This document shows, in pieces, positions 1 through 16,924 of a stretch of 20,000 nt of DNA. The stretch comes from an uncultured virus (IMG/VR IMGVR_UViG_3300008339_000034). Taxonomy: Duplodnaviria; Heunggongvirae; Uroviricota; Caudoviricetes. The DNA lies in the IMG/VR virus record IMGVR_UViG_3300008339_000034; one strand, written 5' to 3'. The first letter of the stretch is position 1, and each line of letters begins with the position of its first letter. The position numbers were made by a program, and so were the translations under genes. The notes under the pieces were generated by a model. It searched no databases. It worked only from the letters and a program-made list of their open reading frames with translations, and was not told the DNA's origin.

Positions 1-608
1 GATACCCAAAGATTCTTAGCATCAGAACCCGTAACGTTTTTAAACTTAGCAGCAAAGCGAAGAACCTTTTGGTTGAAACGACCACCATAAGAGTAGACAA
101 CCAAAGTGGTATCGTTACCCCAGTTAGTAGCAGCTCTATTTGCAAATGATTTCACACCTGCAACTTTCAAAGTCTTGATAGAATCTAAGTTGTTAAATAT
201 AGCTTCGGCAGCGTGAGTAAAAGTTAAATCAAATGTAGCACCGTCAGAATAGTTAAAAGTAGAACTAGAACCTGTGTAAGCTAGAGTTACAGTTAAAAAT
301 CCTTGTAAATTACTATCTACATACTGAAGATACTGATCTGAAGTAGAAATCTTCAAAGAAGGTACAACACCAGTAAATGCAGTGTTATCGTAAAATACAC
401 GAAACTGCATACCTGTAATTTTTTCACTAGTAGAAGTGTTGTAGAAATGTAACGGAGCAACAGTTTTACCTACAGTAGTTGTAGCTACTTGATAACCTGA
501 GTCGATAACAACCCAATGCCCAGTTCCAGGAGAAGTGTTTGCACTTTGTGCAAATAAGTTAGTAGTGAGGATAAACAATCCCAACGCAAACAAAAGTATT
601 TTTTTCAT
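1..608 (-). CDS. Secreted protein with cohesin-like N-terminal domain (runs off window edge)
   Basis: Not in ORF track. ATG at 608 overlaps upstream TGA (ATGA). Hand translation MKKILLFALGLFILTTNLFAQSANTSPGTGHWVVIDSGYQ...EKITGMQFRVFYDNTAF... is open to position 1. Signal peptide ends LFA-Q; 'ITGMQFRVFYD' resembles a cohesin strand motif. Confidence 0.75.
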   Translation of the reverse strand, partial: MKKILLFALGLFILTTNLFAQSANTSPGTGHWVVIDSGYQVATTTVGKTVAPLHFYNTSTSEKITGMQFRVFYDNTAFTGVVPSLKISTSDQYLQYVDSNLQGFLTVTLAYTGSSSTFNYSDGATFDLTFTHAAEAIFNNLDSIKTLKVAGVKSFANRAATNWGNDTTLVVYSYGGRFNQKVLRFAAKFKNVTGSDAKNLWV

Positions 609-11259: not shown

Positions 11260-11627
11260 CTCCTTTGGTACTCTAGGACATCCTACACTACCATCTTAAG
11301 TCCTAATCACCGTCCTCCGTTTTTTCTTTTCCTTCCTACTATTACCACCTCTTCTCTAAAAAAGATAAGCCTACACTACAATCTTACGTCCTAATTACGG
11401 CTTAACAGGTACAAGTTTGTGTAAGTTTGTAAGCCAAACGTTAAACAAAAAGTTAAACAAAACAGGGCTAGTCAAAAAATTCCCCGTGTTGAGACAAATA
11501 AAAGTTAAACAAAGCCAATAAGACCTCGCTTCGCTCGGTCATTTGCGTTTAACGGTCTTACGCCTAACGGCCGATATCCCCCCTACGGGGGTTTTTTCTT
11601 TTCCTTTTTGCCTAATTACTATTCAGT

Positions 11628-12247: not shown

Positions 12248-12670
12248 CCCCTATATAGAGAGAGACAATAACAGTAGGAACCAAAGAGAGTAAAAAAGCA
12301 ACTGCTCTAACATCTTACGTTCTAATCATAAGCCACTTATTTGAAGCTAATTCATGCAATTTATCGCTATTTTACACCAAATAAAGTGCCTGAGAATTGC
12401 ATATTTGTGCACTAAACTACAGCAAAAAGCAAAGAATTGATTCTCATAACTAATTGATAATGAATGCATTAGAGAGATGGGGACTCATCCCCCCATAGTT
12501 TTATCTCTTCACTCTAAATTGCATTAGGTTAAGATAACTGACAACGACTTAATATAGATAAACTACAGATAGGGTTATATACGGTTCTATAGGACATTAC
12601 TATACCTCTCTCTATATCTACGGGTATTACTCTCTCTCTCTCTCTACTGTTAGTTGTTCTATATAGGGGA
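12247..12670. other. ~420-nt non-coding fold-back element
   Basis: Nested perfect inverted repeats: 12247-12259/12658-12670, 12269-12277/12644-12652, 12285-12293/12627-12635. Confidence 0.6.
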
Positions 12671-12796
12671 GTAGGGTAACAGTAGCCATGGTGTGCGATT
12701 AATCAATTTAAGCGGCTATACAATCTTACGGGCTAACTAATCTCTTCCTTATAGGCCTTTCTTTTTTCTTTCCTATCCTACTAATATTAGAAACCT

Positions 12797-13069
12797 ATGT
12801 CAGAACAAAATGAAAACCCAGAAGAGTTTCAACTAGACAGTGTATTTGAAACTATTAAACAACTAGACCTTAACGGTGAAAGAGAAGGATTGATTGCTAT
12901 TGGTTATGTAGACCTTGGTGAGCAAACATCTGTTCGTGCGACTATCCAAGGAAAAAAAGGTCAACTTGTACAAACATTAGCTGCAGCTTTAGATAGCGAC
13001 AGAGACTTAAGGGACCTTTTCCAAAAAGCCATGCTGTACTCTATGGCTAAGCAAGTTGGTCAGGATTAA
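12797..13069 (+). CDS. Hypothetical protein (90 aa)
   Basis: ORF 17 nt after motif +1 at 12780. Confidence 0.75.
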   Translation: MSEQNENPEEFQLDSVFETIKQLDLNGEREGLIAIGYVDLGEQTSVRATIQGKKGQLVQTLAAALDSDRDLRDLFQKAMLYSMAKQVGQD

Positions 13070-13187
13070 CTACAAAGAATTATCTTTGTGCTGAACCCCT
13101 TTTGGGATAGTATCCCTTAACCGAAAGTTCCCACCTGCATACCGTTAAGAAGCTACGCTCTTAGATCTGCTCGTGGGACTTTTTCAT

Positions 13188-13312
13188 AGTCAGGTGGCGG
13201 AATGGTAAACGCTACCCAGATAACAGCCGAAAGGTGGGGATTAATCAGAATAGTTATTCTGCAAAGCACTAACGAAACAGATTAATTACAGGTTCGATTC
13301 CTGTCCTGACTA
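13188..13312 (+). ncRNA. tRNA-like RNA without a canonical anticodon arm
   Basis: Acceptor AGTCAGG/CCTGACT-A, D arm GCG-GAATGGTAAA-CGC, T arm ACAGG-TTCGATT-CCTGT; ~75-nt structured insert in between; no encoded CCA. Confidence 0.7.
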
Positions 13313-13325
13313 CTAATAAGACACT

Positions 13326-13354
13326 AGAAGGATTCTAAGTAATCCTTCTTTTTT
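13326..13354 (+). terminator. Intrinsic terminator
   Basis: AGAAGGATT-CTAAGT-AATCCTTCT plus T tract. Confidence 0.7.
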
Positions 13355-13462
13355 CTTTTCCTTTATACTCTGACTTTACTGGTTATCTGGTAATGTTCTC
13401 ATAGCGTCAGAGTTTTTGAAGTTCATATATCTGTTTCCCTTAGCAATAGGGGAAACATTTAT

Positions 13463-13537
13463 GGCCCGTTCGTCTAGCGGTTAGGACAATAGGATTTCAT
13501 CCTAGAAACAGAGGTTCAACTCCTCTACGGGCTACCA
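13463..13537 (+). tRNA. trnE: tRNA-Glu (TTC)
   Basis: GGCCCGT/ACGGGCT acceptor, D arm, anticodon loop AT-TTC-AT, T arm AGAGG-TTCAACT-CCTCT, encoded CCA. Confidence 0.9.
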
Positions 13538-13731
13538 AACAAACTCTCTTACAGAATATAGGTTAGCACTATTGAAAGAAGACTTGACTTATGGGAAGTA
13601 GCTACCCATAAGCATTAATGACTCAAGGATAGCTGTAATGGATCCTGCTCTGATGTGCACGTCAACAGGTTATGGGGAACAAACCATAAGTAAAATCCAC
13701 AACTACGGTAATCGTAGAAGAGAGTTTGTTT
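13537..13731 (+). ncRNA. ~195-nt multi-stem RNA candidate immediately 3' of tRNA-Glu
   Basis: 14-bp perfect closing stem AAACAAACTCTCTT/AAGAGAGTTTGTTT plus several nested internal helices. Confidence 0.65.
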
Positions 13732-13784
13732 TAGTTATTAAGAAGAACCACATGGGATTGTCTAGTCTTATGTGGTTTTCATAG

Positions 13785-13818
13785 ATAGTCAGTCTTAACC
13801 GACTGACTATTTTCTTTT
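13785..13818 (+). terminator. Intrinsic terminator
   Basis: ATAGTCAGTC-TTAACC-GACTGACTAT then TTTCTTTT. Confidence 0.7.
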
Positions 13819-13873
13819 CTTATTCCTCCCTTCGGTCGGATTTTTTCTTTCCCTTTCTACTAATATCTGACCT

Positions 13874-14254
13874 ATGAGAAAAAGATTATCTAAAACAGTT
13901 GACGGTAAAACTTACGAGAGAGTTGATACCAGTCGTTTCTTCAGAGTTAAAGCGCGTTCTATTAAGAAAGCACTAGACAAACTTGAATTCATCCACACAC
14001 GGGAAGTTCGTGACATGTTCAGAAGTTTAACAGTCGATACCATATTGGCTGATAAGCGTGAAGCACGTGTTAACCTTACCTATAGGTTAGCAGTAGAGCA
14101 GGAAGTAACAATTCCTGTGAAAACTACTGTTCCTACTAGTTATAGAGAAACAGGTGATTTGGGATTTGGGTATCCCAAGTTCACACCCTGTAACTTTATA
14201 GAGCAACTACGTATGGTTAGAGAAATAATACCTACTGTGGGATGGATTGATTAG
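13874..14254 (+). CDS. Basic hypothetical protein (126 aa)
   Basis: ORF after motif +1 at 13859; terminator follows. Confidence 0.75.
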   Translation: MRKRLSKTVDGKTYERVDTSRFFRVKARSIKKALDKLEFIHTREVRDMFRSLTVDTILADKREARVNLTYRLAVEQEVTIPVKTTVPTSYRETGDLGFGYPKFTPCNFIEQLRMVREIIPTVGWID

Positions 14255-14259
14255 CCATG

Positions 14260-14290
14260 AAGCCTCTTGAGAAATCAGGAGGCTTTTTTT
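14260..14290 (+). terminator. Intrinsic terminator
   Basis: AAGCCTCTTGA-GAAA-TCAGGAGGCTT plus T run. Confidence 0.8.
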
Positions 14291-14314
14291 AACTGAACTT
14301 AACAAAAAAAATAT

Positions 14315-15202
14315 ATGAAAACATTTCCAGAGAACATCGCCAATACAGCTAAAATGCTTAAGGCGGTACTAGACACATCCGAAACTAGTAAGTTTCTAAC
14401 AACTGACGAAAAGATTCAACTAGAGTATGAACAATTGATTGGTAAAGACATCAATTATCCTCTTAAGAATCTTAAATTTATCTCTTCTGATGTTCCTCTC
14501 TATCAATTTGAGAGTCTAAACAGAGAAGTTGCTGCCTCACAAGCCAACAAATTAAGCAAGTCTATGCTTAAGATGGGTAATCTAAGAGCCATCGTTGTAG
14601 TTAAGCTGAAGTATAAGTCAAAAACTGCTCATTACTACATCTTAGATGGTCAGCATTTGTACACTGCACTCTTGAGTTTAAAAGTTACAGAGATACCTGT
14701 TGTAGAAATCTGTATTGATTCTTTGCCTTCTTTGGTAGAGAAAATTGCTTTGCTTAACTCCTCTTCTAAGGCATGGCAGTTGAAAGATTACATCGTAGCT
14801 TGGTCAAACATACACAGTGACTACGTAACTCTACTAGAACTACAGAAAAAGTATGACCTAGAGTATAGCATGATTGCTGCTATCTGTGCAGGTTTAGACT
14901 TAAAAGCAGGTACTCCAGGGGCTAACAGCATCAAAACAGGTAAGTTTAGAATCAAAAACTTAGCATCAAGTGAACAAAAGATGTCTGATATCAACGAAAT
15001 ATTAAACCAACTGCCACGTATGGATCGTGCAGCTAATAGATATTTTGTTATGTCACTCGTAAACTTGTTCCATGAGGTTAATTACACTAGAACTCATCAT
15101 AGAAAACTGATGCGTTTTGTTATAGCTAATAAGGACACCTTAAGGTTTGCATTAAACAATGTAACTGAACTTAAGCAATTCCTATTAAAAGCTTTTGATT
15201 AA
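14315..15202 (+). CDS. ParB/Srx-like N-terminal domain protein
   Basis: NREV...LSKSMLKMGNLRAIVVV...YYILDGQHLYTAL fits the ParB-N / DGQHR-like pattern. Confidence 0.65.
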   Translation: MKTFPENIANTAKMLKAVLDTSETSKFLTTDEKIQLEYEQLIGKDINYPLKNLKFISSDVPLYQFESLNREVAASQANKLSKSMLKMGNLRAIVVVKLKYKSKTAHYYILDGQHLYTALLSLKVTEIPVVEICIDSLPSLVEKIALLNSSSKAWQLKDYIVAWSNIHSDYVTLLELQKKYDLEYSMIAAICAGLDLKAGTPGANSIKTGKFRIKNLASSEQKMSDINEILNQLPRMDRAANRYFVMSLVNLFHEVNYTRTHHRKLMRFVIANKDTLRFALNNVTELKQFLLKAFD

Positions 15203-15813: not shown

Positions 15814-16924
15814 AGAAAGAATTCAGAAAGAAGCACTAGATGCAGTCTTGTCATCAAGAAGGGCAGGACTGCATGTTAGTATGGGTGTAGGTAAGACTTA
15901 TATAGGTCTACAGTACATCAACAAATTTGGTGGTAAGGTATTAGTAGCGGCTCCCAAGCTTACAATCTTTGAGTCGTGGAAGAACGATGCAGCAAAGTTT
16001 GGATTAGAGTACTTGTTACAAAGTATAACCTTTACAAGTTATATCTCCTTAACAAAACATAATCCAAAAGATTATGACATTGTAATTCTAGACGAAGCAC
16101 ACAATACCAAGAGTTCTCACGATGAGTTCTTAGGTAACTTTACAGGAAGAATACTAGGACTTACAGGTACACCTCCAAAGTACACCTATGGAGAGAAAGG
16201 ACAGATGATGGAGCAGTACTATCCCATTAAGTATACTTATGGTGTAGACGAGGCTGTAGGTGAAGAGATTCTAAACGACTATAGAATCTTTGTTCATACA
16301 TTACCTTTAGGTACAGCAAACAACATACAAGTAGGGAAGGGAAATAAAACTTTTCTTACAAGTGAAGCTAAGAACTATAGCTGGTTGCAGAGTCAGATTC
16401 AATCTGCAGTAAGCGACAAGCAAGTGTTTATGAAGCGTATCTTCCTTCTAAATGCCCTTAAACAGTTCAAGACTAAGTTGTTCTTTACCGATTTCATATC
16501 TAAACGAGTACCTCCCACTGAAAAGTGCTTACTATTTGCCAATACTACAGAACAAGCTGATGCTATCTGTCAGTATTCTCACCACTCCAAGAACTCTAAA
16601 ACAGTTAATGAGATTAACCTACAGAAGTTTGCTAGTGGTGAAGTAACTAGATTAAGTGCAGTAGAACAACTCAGTGAGGGTGTTACTGTACCTAATCTAA
16701 AACACATTGTTATCATGCACTCTTATGGTAACGAGAAGAAAGCTTCCCAGAAAATCGGCCGTGCACTTCGTCTAAACAAAGATGAAGTAGCAGCAGTACA
16801 TGTATTGTGCTTCAAGAACACGGTAGACGAAACCTGGGTAGCAAAATCATTAGAGGACTTTGACATAAGTAAAATAAAATGGATAGATTGGACATTGCAA
16901 GGCAACCAATTCGTGAAGTTGTAA
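15797..16924 (+). CDS. Superfamily 2 (DExH) helicase
   Basis: Walker A SMGVGKT, ILDEAH, GLTGT, LSEGVTVP, QKIGRALR. Confidence 0.9.
   Translation: MSQEIRERIQKEALDAVLSSRRAGLHVSMGVGKTYIGLQYINKFGGKVLVAAPKLTIFESWKNDAAKFGLEYLLQSITFTSYISLTKHNPKDYDIVILDEAHNTKSSHDEFLGNFTGRILGLTGTPPKYTYGEKGQMMEQYYPIKYTYGVDEAVGEEILNDYRIFVHTLPLGTANNIQVGKGNKTFLTSEAKNYSWLQSQIQSAVSDKQVFMKRIFLLNALKQFKTKLFFTDFISKRVPPTEKCLLFANTTEQADAICQYSHHSKNSKTVNEINLQKFASGEVTRLSAVEQLSEGVTVPNLKHIVIMHSYGNEKKASQKIGRALRLNKDEVAAVHVLCFKNTVDETWVAKSLEDFDISKIKWIDWTLQGNQFVKL

What the first reader, a model, noticed from the sequence alone, without database searches (positions are those of the whole stretch)
13188..13312. tRNA mimic with intact acceptor, D and T arms but no anticodon loop
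Seen: 7-bp acceptor stem, Leu/Ser-type D arm and canonical T arm. The anticodon arm is replaced by CCCA..GCC-GAAA-GGT-GGG (GNRA-capped, bulged), and the variable region is a long ATTAATC/GATTAAT stem containing CAGAATA/TATTCTG. Fully paired inserts argue against simple decay. Inference: a decoy for tRNA-targeting defences or synthetases, a non-ribosomal aminoacyl donor, or an RNase P/Z processing signal for neighbouring RNAs.
Basis: partly seen in the sequence, partly recalled or inferred. Interest (0 to 1): 0.72.

Follow-up and report, generated by a model that had tools for sequence, protein, structure and literature searches.

The report
Phage tRNA-shaped RNA carrying a cargo module
A crAss-like freshwater phage carries a gene for an RNA that keeps the upper body of a leucine tRNA but has a knotted 75-base module instead of an anticodon, one of a very large and uncatalogued family of phage RNAs whose job is still unknown.

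Summary
Window 13188-13312 (+) has a 7-bp acceptor stem, a leucine-type D arm and a canonical T arm. It has no anticodon loop, and no coherent intron model restores one.

It is not a decayed tRNA. The family carries at least 134 different central modules. Phage T5 RNA1, annotated as a tRNA-like stable RNA of unknown function, is the only cultured relative I found.

New here:
- This window's own 75-nt module is almost invariant (96% column identity) in 13 different genomic contexts.
- Carriers include unrelated phages of 42, 68 and 197 kb.
- A syntenic relative shares only 33-50% protein identity and has a compensated, different acceptor stem, yet its module is identical.

Flanks match host tRNA genes: U at -1, and C after the discriminator in every distinct element or flank counted. 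This suggests tRNA-type maturation.

Best reading: a tRNA chassis that gives processing and stability, while the module does the work. The target is unknown.

The scan has met this family before on other DNA (e1-6107528, e1-5677029, e1-5908106, e1-6116202).

The parts
13188..13312 (+). Whole tRNA-shaped RNA gene (125 nt), from A1 to discriminator A73
   Evidence: Rfam tRNA 41.4 bits. Family model R1 81.9 bits, E 8e-21.
13188..13194 (+). Acceptor stem 5' strand AGUCAGG. It pairs with 13305-13311 (CCUGACU).
   Evidence: 7 of 7 pairs show double changes across 99 members. This exact stem occurs in 53 of 99.
13197..13212 (+). Leucine-type D arm (3-bp stem, A14, A15, GG)
   Evidence: 21 of 21 bases identical to an annotated tRNA-Leu of Caulobacter phage CcrBL9. 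The same arm sits in 5 of 5 canonical tRNA-Leu genes of the MAG genomes searched.
13215..13238 (+). Hairpin H1 where the anticodon arm would be: CCC/GGG plus GCC/GGU, GAAA loop, 8-nt bulge 13218-13225
   Evidence: All 6 pairs are paired in 15 of 15 variants. Pair G/U reads GU 13, AU 2.
13219..13224 (+). Pseudoknot 5' strand GAUAAC, inside the H1 bulge. It pairs with 13253-13258 (GUUAUU).
   Evidence: 6 pairs are paired in 15 of 15 variants. Pair 13219/13258 reads GU 10, AU 3, GC 2.
13240..13286 (+). Enlarged variable-arm domain H2. The outer stem is 13240-13246 with 13280-13286. Inside lie the pseudoknot 3' strand 13253-13258 and the small hairpin UGC-AAA-GCA (13260-13268).
   Evidence: Outer stem 97.1% paired, small hairpin 97.8% paired, in 15 variants.
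13287..13287 (+). U at the position of U48, the partner of A15 (13202) in leucine tRNAs
   Evidence: U in 106 of 118 members collected without any constraint on this base.
13288..13304 (+). T arm ACAGG-UUCGAUU-CCUGU
   Evidence: Nearly the same arm occurs in a Chitinophagaceae-MAG tRNA-Leu(CAA).
13313..13315 (+). Trailer CUA. The C after the discriminator is fixed in the family and CCA is not encoded.
   Evidence: C at this place in 118 of 118 and in 96 of 96 distinct flanks.
13326..13356 (+). Terminator-like hairpin plus T run, 14 nt after the gene
13070..13187 (+). Structured upstream spacer that ends in a long hairpin plus U run 4 nt before the gene. The last base (-1) is U.
   Evidence: MFE -33.3, z -4.4, 0 of 200 shuffles as good. 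87.9% identical in relative G001.
13463..13537 (+). Neighbouring ordinary tRNA-Glu(UUC), with CCA encoded
13634..13695 (+). Neighbouring freshwater-1 RNA (RF02979)
   Evidence: 79.7 bits against a gathering score of 72.

Best explanation
This is a gene for a non-decoding, tRNA-shaped RNA built from two parts.

(1) A chassis: the upper body of a host-type leucine tRNA (acceptor/T minihelix, D arm, elbow).

(2) A cargo: a 75-nt pseudoknotted module in place of the anticodon and variable arms.

Inferred mechanism. The chassis makes the host treat the transcript as a tRNA precursor. RNase P would cut between U(-1) and A1. The 3' end would be trimmed to the discriminator or the following C and completed to CCA. 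The elbow would fold and be modified. The result would be a precisely ended, nuclease-resistant RNA. The module would then do the work by binding a host or phage factor through its fixed three-dimensional shape. The chassis may also be leucylated, but that is probably not essential.

What is shown and what is not. Shown: the architecture, membership of the family, selection on the shell helices, near-invariance of this module across unrelated phages, and the absence of any anticodon. Inferred: processing, stability and binding by the module. Unknown: the target.
For: Chassis. Shell helices covary: 98.2% of cells paired, 10 of 15 pairs with double changes, 0 of 500 shuffles as high. Elbow bases persist when they are not selected for: U8 113, A14 107, D-loop GG 105 and U48 106 of 118.

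Flanks look like those of tRNA genes. U at -1 in 87% of 93 distinct upstream flanks, with an A-rich -5 to -2. C after the discriminator in 96 of 96 and 118 of 118. ARAGORN-called tRNAs in the same loci show the same pattern: U(-1) in 29 of 44, and 34 of 44 end in N73-C by my tally of the endings listed. Cellular tRNA-Leu genes with the same D arm have trailers CAA and CUU.

Cargo. 99 distinct members fall into 73 module classes. 199 distinct centres fall into 134 classes. This window's module recurs in 15 variants and 13 upstream contexts at 96% mean column identity. Carriers are phages of 42 kb (96% complete), 68 kb (99%) and 197 kb (100%). Apart from the element and matches to the shell halves of other family members, the only shared DNA is a 66-nt repeat region with G003, and they share no neighbouring ORF. 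In syntenic G001 (neighbour proteins 33-50% identical) the region from D arm to T arm is 100% identical, while the acceptor stem differs at 4 compensated pairs and the adjacent spacer is 87.9% identical. At that divergence, zero changes in 75 nt has probability about 7e-5 (my arithmetic).

Precedents. An engineered tRNA scaffold with an RNA put in place of the anticodon arm is processed and protected in E. coli (PMC3753655 passages). T5 RNA1, annotated as a stable RNA, matches the family model at 38.5 bits, E 1e-9; no annotated T5 tRNA gene exceeds 18.2 bits.
Against: No binding partner, target or phenotype is known. No gene co-occurs next to the module.

Expression and RNA ends are not shown. 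The one metatranscriptome contig that spans the whole element also carries 52 nt of upstream flank, and its run of A's is genomic. It may be a precursor or contaminating DNA.

The acceptor sequence AGUCAGG is far more conserved (53 of 99) than a mere processing handle needs, so the chassis may be read in a sequence-specific way that I cannot explain.

Near-identity across unrelated phages could partly reflect recent horizontal transfer rather than long purifying selection.

The phage encodes no tRNA enzyme that Pfam can see, so every processing step rests on host enzymes that I did not examine.
Confidence: 0.5

Rival explanations
1. A leucine-charged tRNA mimic that acts through its aminoacyl end or through LeuRS. 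It would soak up or modulate LeuRS or EF-Tu, or donate leucine to a non-ribosomal acceptor. The module would serve only to keep it off the ribosome.
For: The body is leucine-type. The D arm is identical to those of real tRNA-Leu genes. A15 and U48 are kept. A73 occurs in 84 of 99 and 105 of 118. E. coli LeuRS needs A73 and the D/T tertiary contacts, not the anticodon or variable arm; minimal tRNA-Leu without both arms is still charged (PMC9976931 passages citing Larkin 2002).
Against: The discriminator is not A in 15 of 99 members. The same module works with A (12 of 15), U (2) or G (1). If the module were only a block, it would not be kept identical across phages, nor exist in more than 130 conserved classes. 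No acceptor enzyme (transferase, Fem-like, cyclodipeptide synthase) was found among 104 ORFs. Charging was not tested.
Confidence: 0.2
2. A decoy for host defences or toxins that attack tRNAs at the acceptor end, T arm or elbow.
For: The acceptor/T minihelix and elbow are intact and strongly conserved. The genes sit among phage tRNA genes.
Against: There is no anticodon loop, so the best-known anticodon nucleases have nothing to cut. A decoy of the upper body does not need a conserved module. The acceptor sequence differs from the cellular tRNA-Leu genes seen (GCCCAGA and GCCCGGA types). Nothing was tested.
Confidence: 0.1
3. A processing mark: a tRNA-like signal whose only role is to let RNase P and 3' nucleases cut neighbouring RNAs out of a longer transcript.
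For: The gene lies in a non-coding island with a structured spacer, a tRNA-Glu and freshwater-1 RNA. Family members stand in tandem arrays with tRNAs.
Against: In this window the gene is bracketed by its own hairpin-plus-U-run elements (13123-13187 upstream, 13326-13356 downstream). That looks like a unit of its own. An ordinary tRNA would do the job. This reading does not explain the conserved module.
Confidence: 0.07
4. A DNA-level cassette. The conserved D-arm and T-arm sequences would serve as recombination or homing handles, and the RNA itself would have no role.
For: Relative to G001 the window differs by an indel of about 205 bp whose ends fall in the D arms of two tandem members. The same module sits in two different acceptor shells. 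tRNA regions of T5 and T4 hold homing endonuclease genes (annotations).
Against: Compensatory changes keep RNA helices in the acceptor, T stem and module. This shows selection at the RNA level. Recombination at the handles is better seen as the way modules are shuffled, not as the function.
Confidence: 0.05
5. A tRNA-Leu gene with an intron, or a decaying pseudo-tRNA.
For: In intron mode ARAGORN can force a call on 87 of 99 members.
Against: Those forced calls give 17 different amino-acid identities (my count from the call listing). Only 15 of 87 are Leu, and the window's copy comes out as Thr(AGU) with a 28-nt intron. Positions and lengths are scattered. Without introns 1 of 99 is called, and that call is offset. 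At 69 nt the insert is far below the size of the group I introns known in bacterial tRNA genes (recalled). Decay is excluded by covariation and by near-identity across phages.
Confidence: 0.03

Closest known systems
Phage T5 RNA1 (AY543070 30501-30644, misc_RNA 'tRNA-like stable RNA with unknown functions')
   Same: It has a leucine-type D arm, a T arm and an acceptor stem, with a module of about 85 nt where the anticodon and variable arms should be. It lies in the phage's tRNA gene region. It matches the family model R1 at 38.5 bits, E 1e-9; no annotated T5 tRNA gene exceeds 18.2 bits.
   Different: The acceptor, D-stem and module sequences differ. No blastn match to this window's RNA was found in 50,697 cultured-phage records. 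Its function is equally unknown. I found no paper on it in the library and know it only from the record's annotation.
Engineered 'tRNA scaffold' for recombinant RNA (PMC3753655, passages read)
   Same: The acceptor, T and D arms are kept and the anticodon stem-loop is replaced by an RNA of interest. The cell processes the chimera and shields it from nucleases.
   Different: It is man-made. It uses a class I tRNA (human tRNA-Lys3 in the passage read), with the insert in the anticodon stem only. Here both the anticodon and variable arms are replaced, on a class II leucine frame.
Class II tRNA-Leu of Bacteroidota-type bacteria (for example the tRNA-Leu(CAA) of a Chitinophagaceae MAG, L319)
   Same: The D arm and T arm are nearly identical. 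A73 is followed by C, and CCA is not encoded.
   Different: There is no anticodon arm. The acceptor stem starts A1-U72 (AGUCAGG) rather than GCCC.... The variable arm is enlarged and knotted to the first hairpin.
tmRNA tRNA-like domain
   Same: It is a tRNA upper half without an anticodon arm, joined to pseudoknots.
   Different: ARAGORN finds no tmRNA. Position 3-70 is U-A, not the G-U that marks alanine identity (recalled rule; the bases are read). There is no tag reading frame and the RNA is only 125 nt.
Phage T4 species 1 and 2 RNAs (rnaC, rnaD)
   Same: They are small stable RNAs of unknown role inside a phage tRNA cluster (annotation).
   Different: rnaC scores only 18.8 bits with R1, below T4's own tRNA-Ser (22.2) and tRNA-Leu (22.0). 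It is not a member of this family by that test.

Membership tests
tRNA (Rfam RF00005) | Acceptor stem, D arm and T arm, with a score above the gathering cut-off | tested here: met
   41.4 bits against 29, model positions 1-71.
tRNA (Rfam RF00005) | Anticodon arm with a 5-bp stem and a 7-nt loop | tested here: not met
   17 model positions are replaced by 69 nt. ARAGORN makes no call. Forced intron calls are incoherent.
Bacterial tRNA-Leu (class II) | Leucine-type D arm, A15 with U48, discriminator A73 | tested here: met
   The D arm is shared with 5 of 5 canonical tRNA-Leu genes. The window has A15, U48 (13287) and A73 (13312). Across the family A73 occurs in 84 of 99 and U48 in 106 of 118.
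Bacterial tRNA-Leu (class II) | Leucine anticodon (NAG or NAA) in a normal loop | tested here: not met
Bacterial tRNA-Leu (class II) | Charged by LeuRS | not testable with these tools
   This rests only on published identity rules (PMC9976931 passages).
Phage leucine-frame tRNA-like RNAs (T5 RNA1 type; no Rfam family) | Leucine-type shell with a foreign structured module between D arm and T arm | tested here: met
   R1 scores 81.9 bits on the window and 38.5 bits on T5 RNA1.
Phage leucine-frame tRNA-like RNAs (T5 RNA1 type; no Rfam family) | Lies among phage tRNA genes | tested here: met
   tRNA-Glu lies 150 nt downstream. In 20 related loci all 46 Rfam matches are tRNA.
Phage leucine-frame tRNA-like RNAs (T5 RNA1 type; no Rfam family) | Accumulates as a stable processed RNA | tested here: inconclusive
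   Only assembled metatranscriptome contigs were available. One spans the element together with its upstream flank.
tmRNA | tRNA-Ala-like end with G3-U70, a tag reading frame, and detection by ARAGORN | tested here: not met
   No tmRNA call. Position 3-70 is U-A.
Intron-bearing bacterial tRNA (group I intron in the anticodon loop) | A conserved anticodon stem on both sides of an intron that Rfam can recognise | tested here: not met
   Sequence varies straight after the D arm. No intron family appears at E up to 1.
Other catalogued tRNA mimics (skipping-rope, DUF2693-FD, salivarius-1, Y RNA-like) | A match to the Rfam model | tested here: not met
   Only tRNA and freshwater-1 were reported in 12500-14500 at E up to 1. 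For the three families of the 2026 preprint I read only the abstract and outline.

The most novel reading that the evidence does not exclude
Phages keep and exchange a large library of short, knotted RNA 'aptamers': at least 134 classes in two truncated samples. All are mounted on one common leucine-tRNA chassis that the host processes and stabilises for them. Each module would neutralise or redirect a particular host protein, for example a defence nuclease or toxin. That would parallel the RNA antitoxin mimics and CRISPR-repeat mimics already known from phages (both recalled, not tested here). The conserved D and T arms would double as recombination handles that let modules jump between phages as different as a 42-kb phage, a crAss-like phage and a 197-kb phage.
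Probability: 0.2. Interest if true: 0.9.

Novelty: new member of a known kind. Interest (0 to 1): 0.66.

Why it matters
Small stable tRNA-like RNAs are annotated in the tRNA regions of T4 and T5, and their records give no function. By my recollection they have been known for decades.

This window shows that the T5 RNA1 design is not a curiosity. It is a very large modular family in uncultured phages. The swapped-in module, not only the tRNA body, is under strong selection and moves between unrelated phages.

That turns a vague question into testable ones: what does a given module bind, and does it need the chassis or charging?

It also points to a natural counterpart of the laboratory tRNA scaffold. 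The family has no Rfam model, so these genes are at present either missed or mislabelled as odd tRNAs.

Tried and rejected
1. Intron model. ARAGORN in intron mode gave 87 of 99 calls, but with 17 amino-acid identities and scattered intron sites. Rejected.

2. tmRNA. No call. Rejected.

3. Known RNA families for the module. Rfam found nothing but tRNA and freshwater-1, both at gathering score over the window and at E up to 1 over 12500-14500. In 20 related loci it found only tRNA.

4. Antisense target in the phage's own genome. Outside the gene itself there are four complementary 12-mers. Shuffled modules give a mean of 1.4 and a maximum of 5. The single 13-mer lies in the same sense as the mRNA there. 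Nothing beyond chance.

5. A conserved neighbouring gene as a protein partner. No ORF is shared within about 5 kb of the element in four of the five other carriers examined, G002-G005; only syntenic G001 shares neighbours.

6. tRNA enzymes in the phage. None among 104 ORFs in Pfam.

7. Expression.
- Five runs on record as RNA, plus one only guessed to be RNA, hold 4-12% of the words.
- When laid, X4 has one 189-nt contig across 13186-13313. It continues into an upstream flank that matches another carrier (L166 type), and its 8 A's are genomic there.
- X2 and X3 match only the shell halves, so they come from other family members.
- These are assembled contigs and cannot show ends, strand or level. 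No verdict on expression or on CCA.

8. Cultured phages. No match to the element. Only partial matches to ordinary tRNA genes.

9. T4 rnaC as a family member. 18.8 bits, below T4's true tRNAs. Rejected.

10. Bacterial genomes. My pattern carried one extra degenerate base, so it searched only the AAWKGG form of the D loop. It gave 6 stretches on five short MAG contigs. This is not a fair census of cellular genomes.

11. Distant syntenic relatives through the ParB-like neighbour. Only identical phages plus one hit at 30% identity. Of no use.

Full report
WHAT IS THERE

Window 13188-13312 (+) matches the Rfam tRNA model from end to end at 41.4 bits (gathering 29). The match works only by skipping 69 nt where the 17 positions of the anticodon arm belong. 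ARAGORN finds the neighbouring tRNA-Glu(UUC) at 13463-13537 and nothing here.

The sequence shows these parts:
- a 7-bp acceptor stem, AGUCAGG with CCUGACU
- discriminator A
- a D arm with a 3-bp stem and the loop of leucine tRNAs
- a canonical T arm
- a first hairpin, CCC/GGG plus GCC/GGU, capped by GAAA and carrying an 8-nt bulge
- a long AUUAAUC/GAUUAAU stem

The fold is more stable than shuffles (z -2.8).

THE HOST GENOME

The window lies in a 107-kb viral record that CheckV rates 92% complete. Pfam shows a crAss-type capsid, tail ring and muzzle proteins. One ORF has a cohesin domain and a type-9-secretion sorting domain, which points to a Bacteroidota-type host. None of 104 ORFs matches a tRNA enzyme family. 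The record holds only two tRNA-model matches: this gene and the tRNA-Glu.

IT IS ONE OF A VERY LARGE FAMILY

These gave 122 elements, 99 of them distinct.
- The acceptor stem was not constrained, yet it is AGUCAGG/CCUGACU in 53 of 99.
- The other acceptor stems differ by compensated changes. All 7 acceptor pairs and 3 of 5 T-stem pairs show double changes, 98.2% of cells are paired, and 0 of 500 shuffles reach this.

A second scan was anchored on the acceptor and T arm and left the D arm free. In that set:
- the D arm is strictly leucine-type in 44 of 118 and loosely so in 79 of 118
- U8 occurs in 113, A14 in 107, a D-loop GG in 105 and U48 in 106

A covariance model of the family (R1) found further copies in the flanks of many loci. 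Up to three or four stand in tandem among ordinary tRNA genes.

NOT AN INTRON AND NOT DECAY

Sequence diverges immediately after the D arm. Without introns ARAGORN of 99, and that call is offset. In intron mode it forces 87 of 99 calls, but these spread over 17 amino-acid identities (my count from the call listing), with Leu in only 15. The window's copy comes out as Thr. No intron family appears in Rfam at E up to 1.

THE LEUCINE FRAME IS HOST-LIKE

The D arm is 21 of 21 identical to an annotated tRNA-Leu of Caulobacter phage CcrBL9. In five MAG genomes the same D-arm pattern marks five canonical tRNA genes, and all five are tRNA-Leu. One comes from a Chitinophagaceae MAG. Its T arm is almost the same as the window's, and its trailer reads A-CAA.

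The family shares that feature. The base after the discriminator is C in 118 of 118 elements and in 96 of 96 distinct flanks. The next-but-one base is A in 89 of 118 (my sum of the CAA, CUA, CGA and CCA counts), and CCA itself is rare. Upstream, the base at -1 is U in 87% of 93 distinct flanks, and -5 to -2 are A-rich. ARAGORN-called tRNAs of the same loci look alike: U(-1) in 29 of 44, and 34 of 44 end in N73-C by my tally of the endings listed. Up to seven of those 44 bear the family's own acceptor.

A U at -1 and a C at 74 are contacts of bacterial RNase P RNA. That is recalled knowledge, not tested here. I infer that these RNAs pass through the host's tRNA maturation path and receive CCA.

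THE NEW POINT: THE MODULE ITSELF IS CONSERVED

Across the family the centres look hypervariable. The 99 members fall into 73 classes. The 199 distinct centres from both scans fall into 134 classes.

Within a class the picture reverses. Two scans aimed at this window's module found it again: a structural pattern in viral contigs and a 20-mer in metagenome contigs. Together they gave 15 distinct variants behind 13 different upstream flanks, with 96% mean column identity.

The carriers include records of 42 kb (96% complete), 68 kb (99%) and 197 kb (100%, with terminal repeats). With the window they share no neighbouring ORF. Apart from the element and matches to the shell halves of other family members, the only shared DNA is a 66-nt repeat region with G003.

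One carrier, G001, is a true but distant relative. Gene order is kept and the neighbouring proteins are 33-50% identical. There the stretch from D arm to T arm is 100% identical to the window. The acceptor stem differs at four compensated pairs and CCA is encoded. The adjacent spacer is 87.9% identical. At that divergence, zero changes in 75 nt has a probability of about 7e-5 (my arithmetic).

So the module is the most strongly kept part of the gene, and it travels between unrelated phages.

STRUCTURE OF THE MODULE

In the 15 variants:
- H1 and the outer H2 stem hold (100% and 97% paired).
- A small UGC-AAA-GCA hairpin holds (98%). In five variants its loop becomes GAAA.
- A crossing helix between the H1 bulge (GAUAAC) and GUUAUU inside H2 is paired in 15 of 15. 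Its end pair reads GU 10, AU 3, GC 2.

All the changes in the crossing helix are one-sided, so the pseudoknot is favoured rather than proven.

A second module class (6 sequences) also fits two crossing helices, with one compensated pair. Knotted, compact modules may therefore be the rule.

HOW MODULES MOVE

Aligned with G001, the window lacks about 205 bp. The ends of this indel fall in the D arms of two tandem members. The same module sits in two different acceptor shells. I infer that the near-universal D-arm and T-arm sequences act as handles for homologous exchange of modules.

HOW IT MOST LIKELY WORKS

The design matches the laboratory tRNA scaffold. There the acceptor, D and T arms make E. 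coli process and protect an RNA placed where the anticodon arm was (PMC3753655, passages).

I commit to this reading: the chassis supplies maturation and stability, and the module binds a factor. The confidence is about 0.5 for that mechanism. It is about 0.9 for the narrower claim that this is a maintained, non-decoding family member.

Leucylation is possible. E. coli LeuRS needs A73 and the elbow, not the two missing arms (PMC9976931, passages). But the discriminator is not A in 15 of 99 members, and the same module occurs with A, U or G. So I rate charging as non-essential.

The unexplained point is the extreme conservation of the acceptor sequence AGUCAGG. It suggests sequence-specific reading of the chassis by something.

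WHAT IS KNOWN

- T5 RNA1, annotated as a 'tRNA-like stable RNA with unknown functions', matches R1 at 38.5 bits; no annotated T5 tRNA gene exceeds 18.2 bits.
- T4 rnaC does not stand out from T4's true tRNAs.
- No cultured phage holds this RNA.
- Five full-text searches found no paper that describes such a family. From those listings I read only titles and abstract starts. I read passages of two papers and the outline of a 2026 preprint on three other bacterial tRNA mimics. Supplements were not opened.
- Earlier agents of this scan reported the same class on other genomes and named T5 RNA1 as the closest known. I re-tested that link here.

LIMITS

- Expression, RNA ends, CCA and charging are not shown (one search gives assembled contigs only).
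- Both family scans are truncated samples.
- The census of bacterial genomes was flawed by my pattern slip.
- The target of the module is unknown.

Noticed in passing
window 13634-13695 (+): A freshwater-1 RNA (RF02979, 79.7 bits) lies just after the tRNA-Glu. Short metatranscriptome contigs of 163-209 nt from three runs cover roughly 13537-13745, while nothing covers the flanking ORFs. The same tRNA-Glu plus freshwater-1 block is 75.8% identical in relative G001 but sits about 3 kb away there.
   Followed up: partly
window 13070-13187 (+): The spacer before the gene is strongly structured: three hairpins, MFE -33.3, z -4.4. The last hairpin is followed by a U run. It is 87.9% identical in G001, and its 3' end recurs upstream of another family member (flank list). 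It could be a terminator cassette or a small RNA of its own.
   Followed up: partly
window 11441-11512 (+): Three copies of GTTAAACAAA lie in an intergenic stretch. The stretch is 77-82% identical in G001 and in the otherwise unrelated 68-kb phage G003. It does not fold better than shuffles, so it looks like a protein-binding repeat rather than an RNA.
   Followed up: partly
L177 4798-4941 (G001 16253-16396): The relative G001 has an extra 144-nt family member, with a different module, inserted between the conserved spacer and the gene that bears this window's module.
   Followed up: partly
L005 409-485 (+): The same AGUCAGG acceptor and T arm also occur on a 77-nt gene with a regular-looking anticodon arm. 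ARAGORN calls it tRNA-Ser(UGA), yet it has no long variable arm. The chassis may derive from, or be shared with, real phage tRNAs.
   Followed up: no
L168 120-185 (-): In one metagenome contig the module's 20-mer and the AUUAAUC/GAUUAAU stem occur with no tRNA shell, right after the stop of an ORF. Rfam finds nothing there. This may be chance or a module outside its chassis.
   Followed up: partly
window 3-608 (-), continuing beyond the window start: This is the 5' part of a 629-aa ORF with a cohesin domain and a type-9-secretion C-terminal sorting domain. It hints at a Bacteroidota-type host.
   Followed up: no
L142 87-159 (+) and L029 (-) 84-nt copy: Family shells also occur with very short centres (22 and 34 nt), giving RNAs of normal tRNA length that still have no 7-nt anticodon loop.
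   Followed up: no
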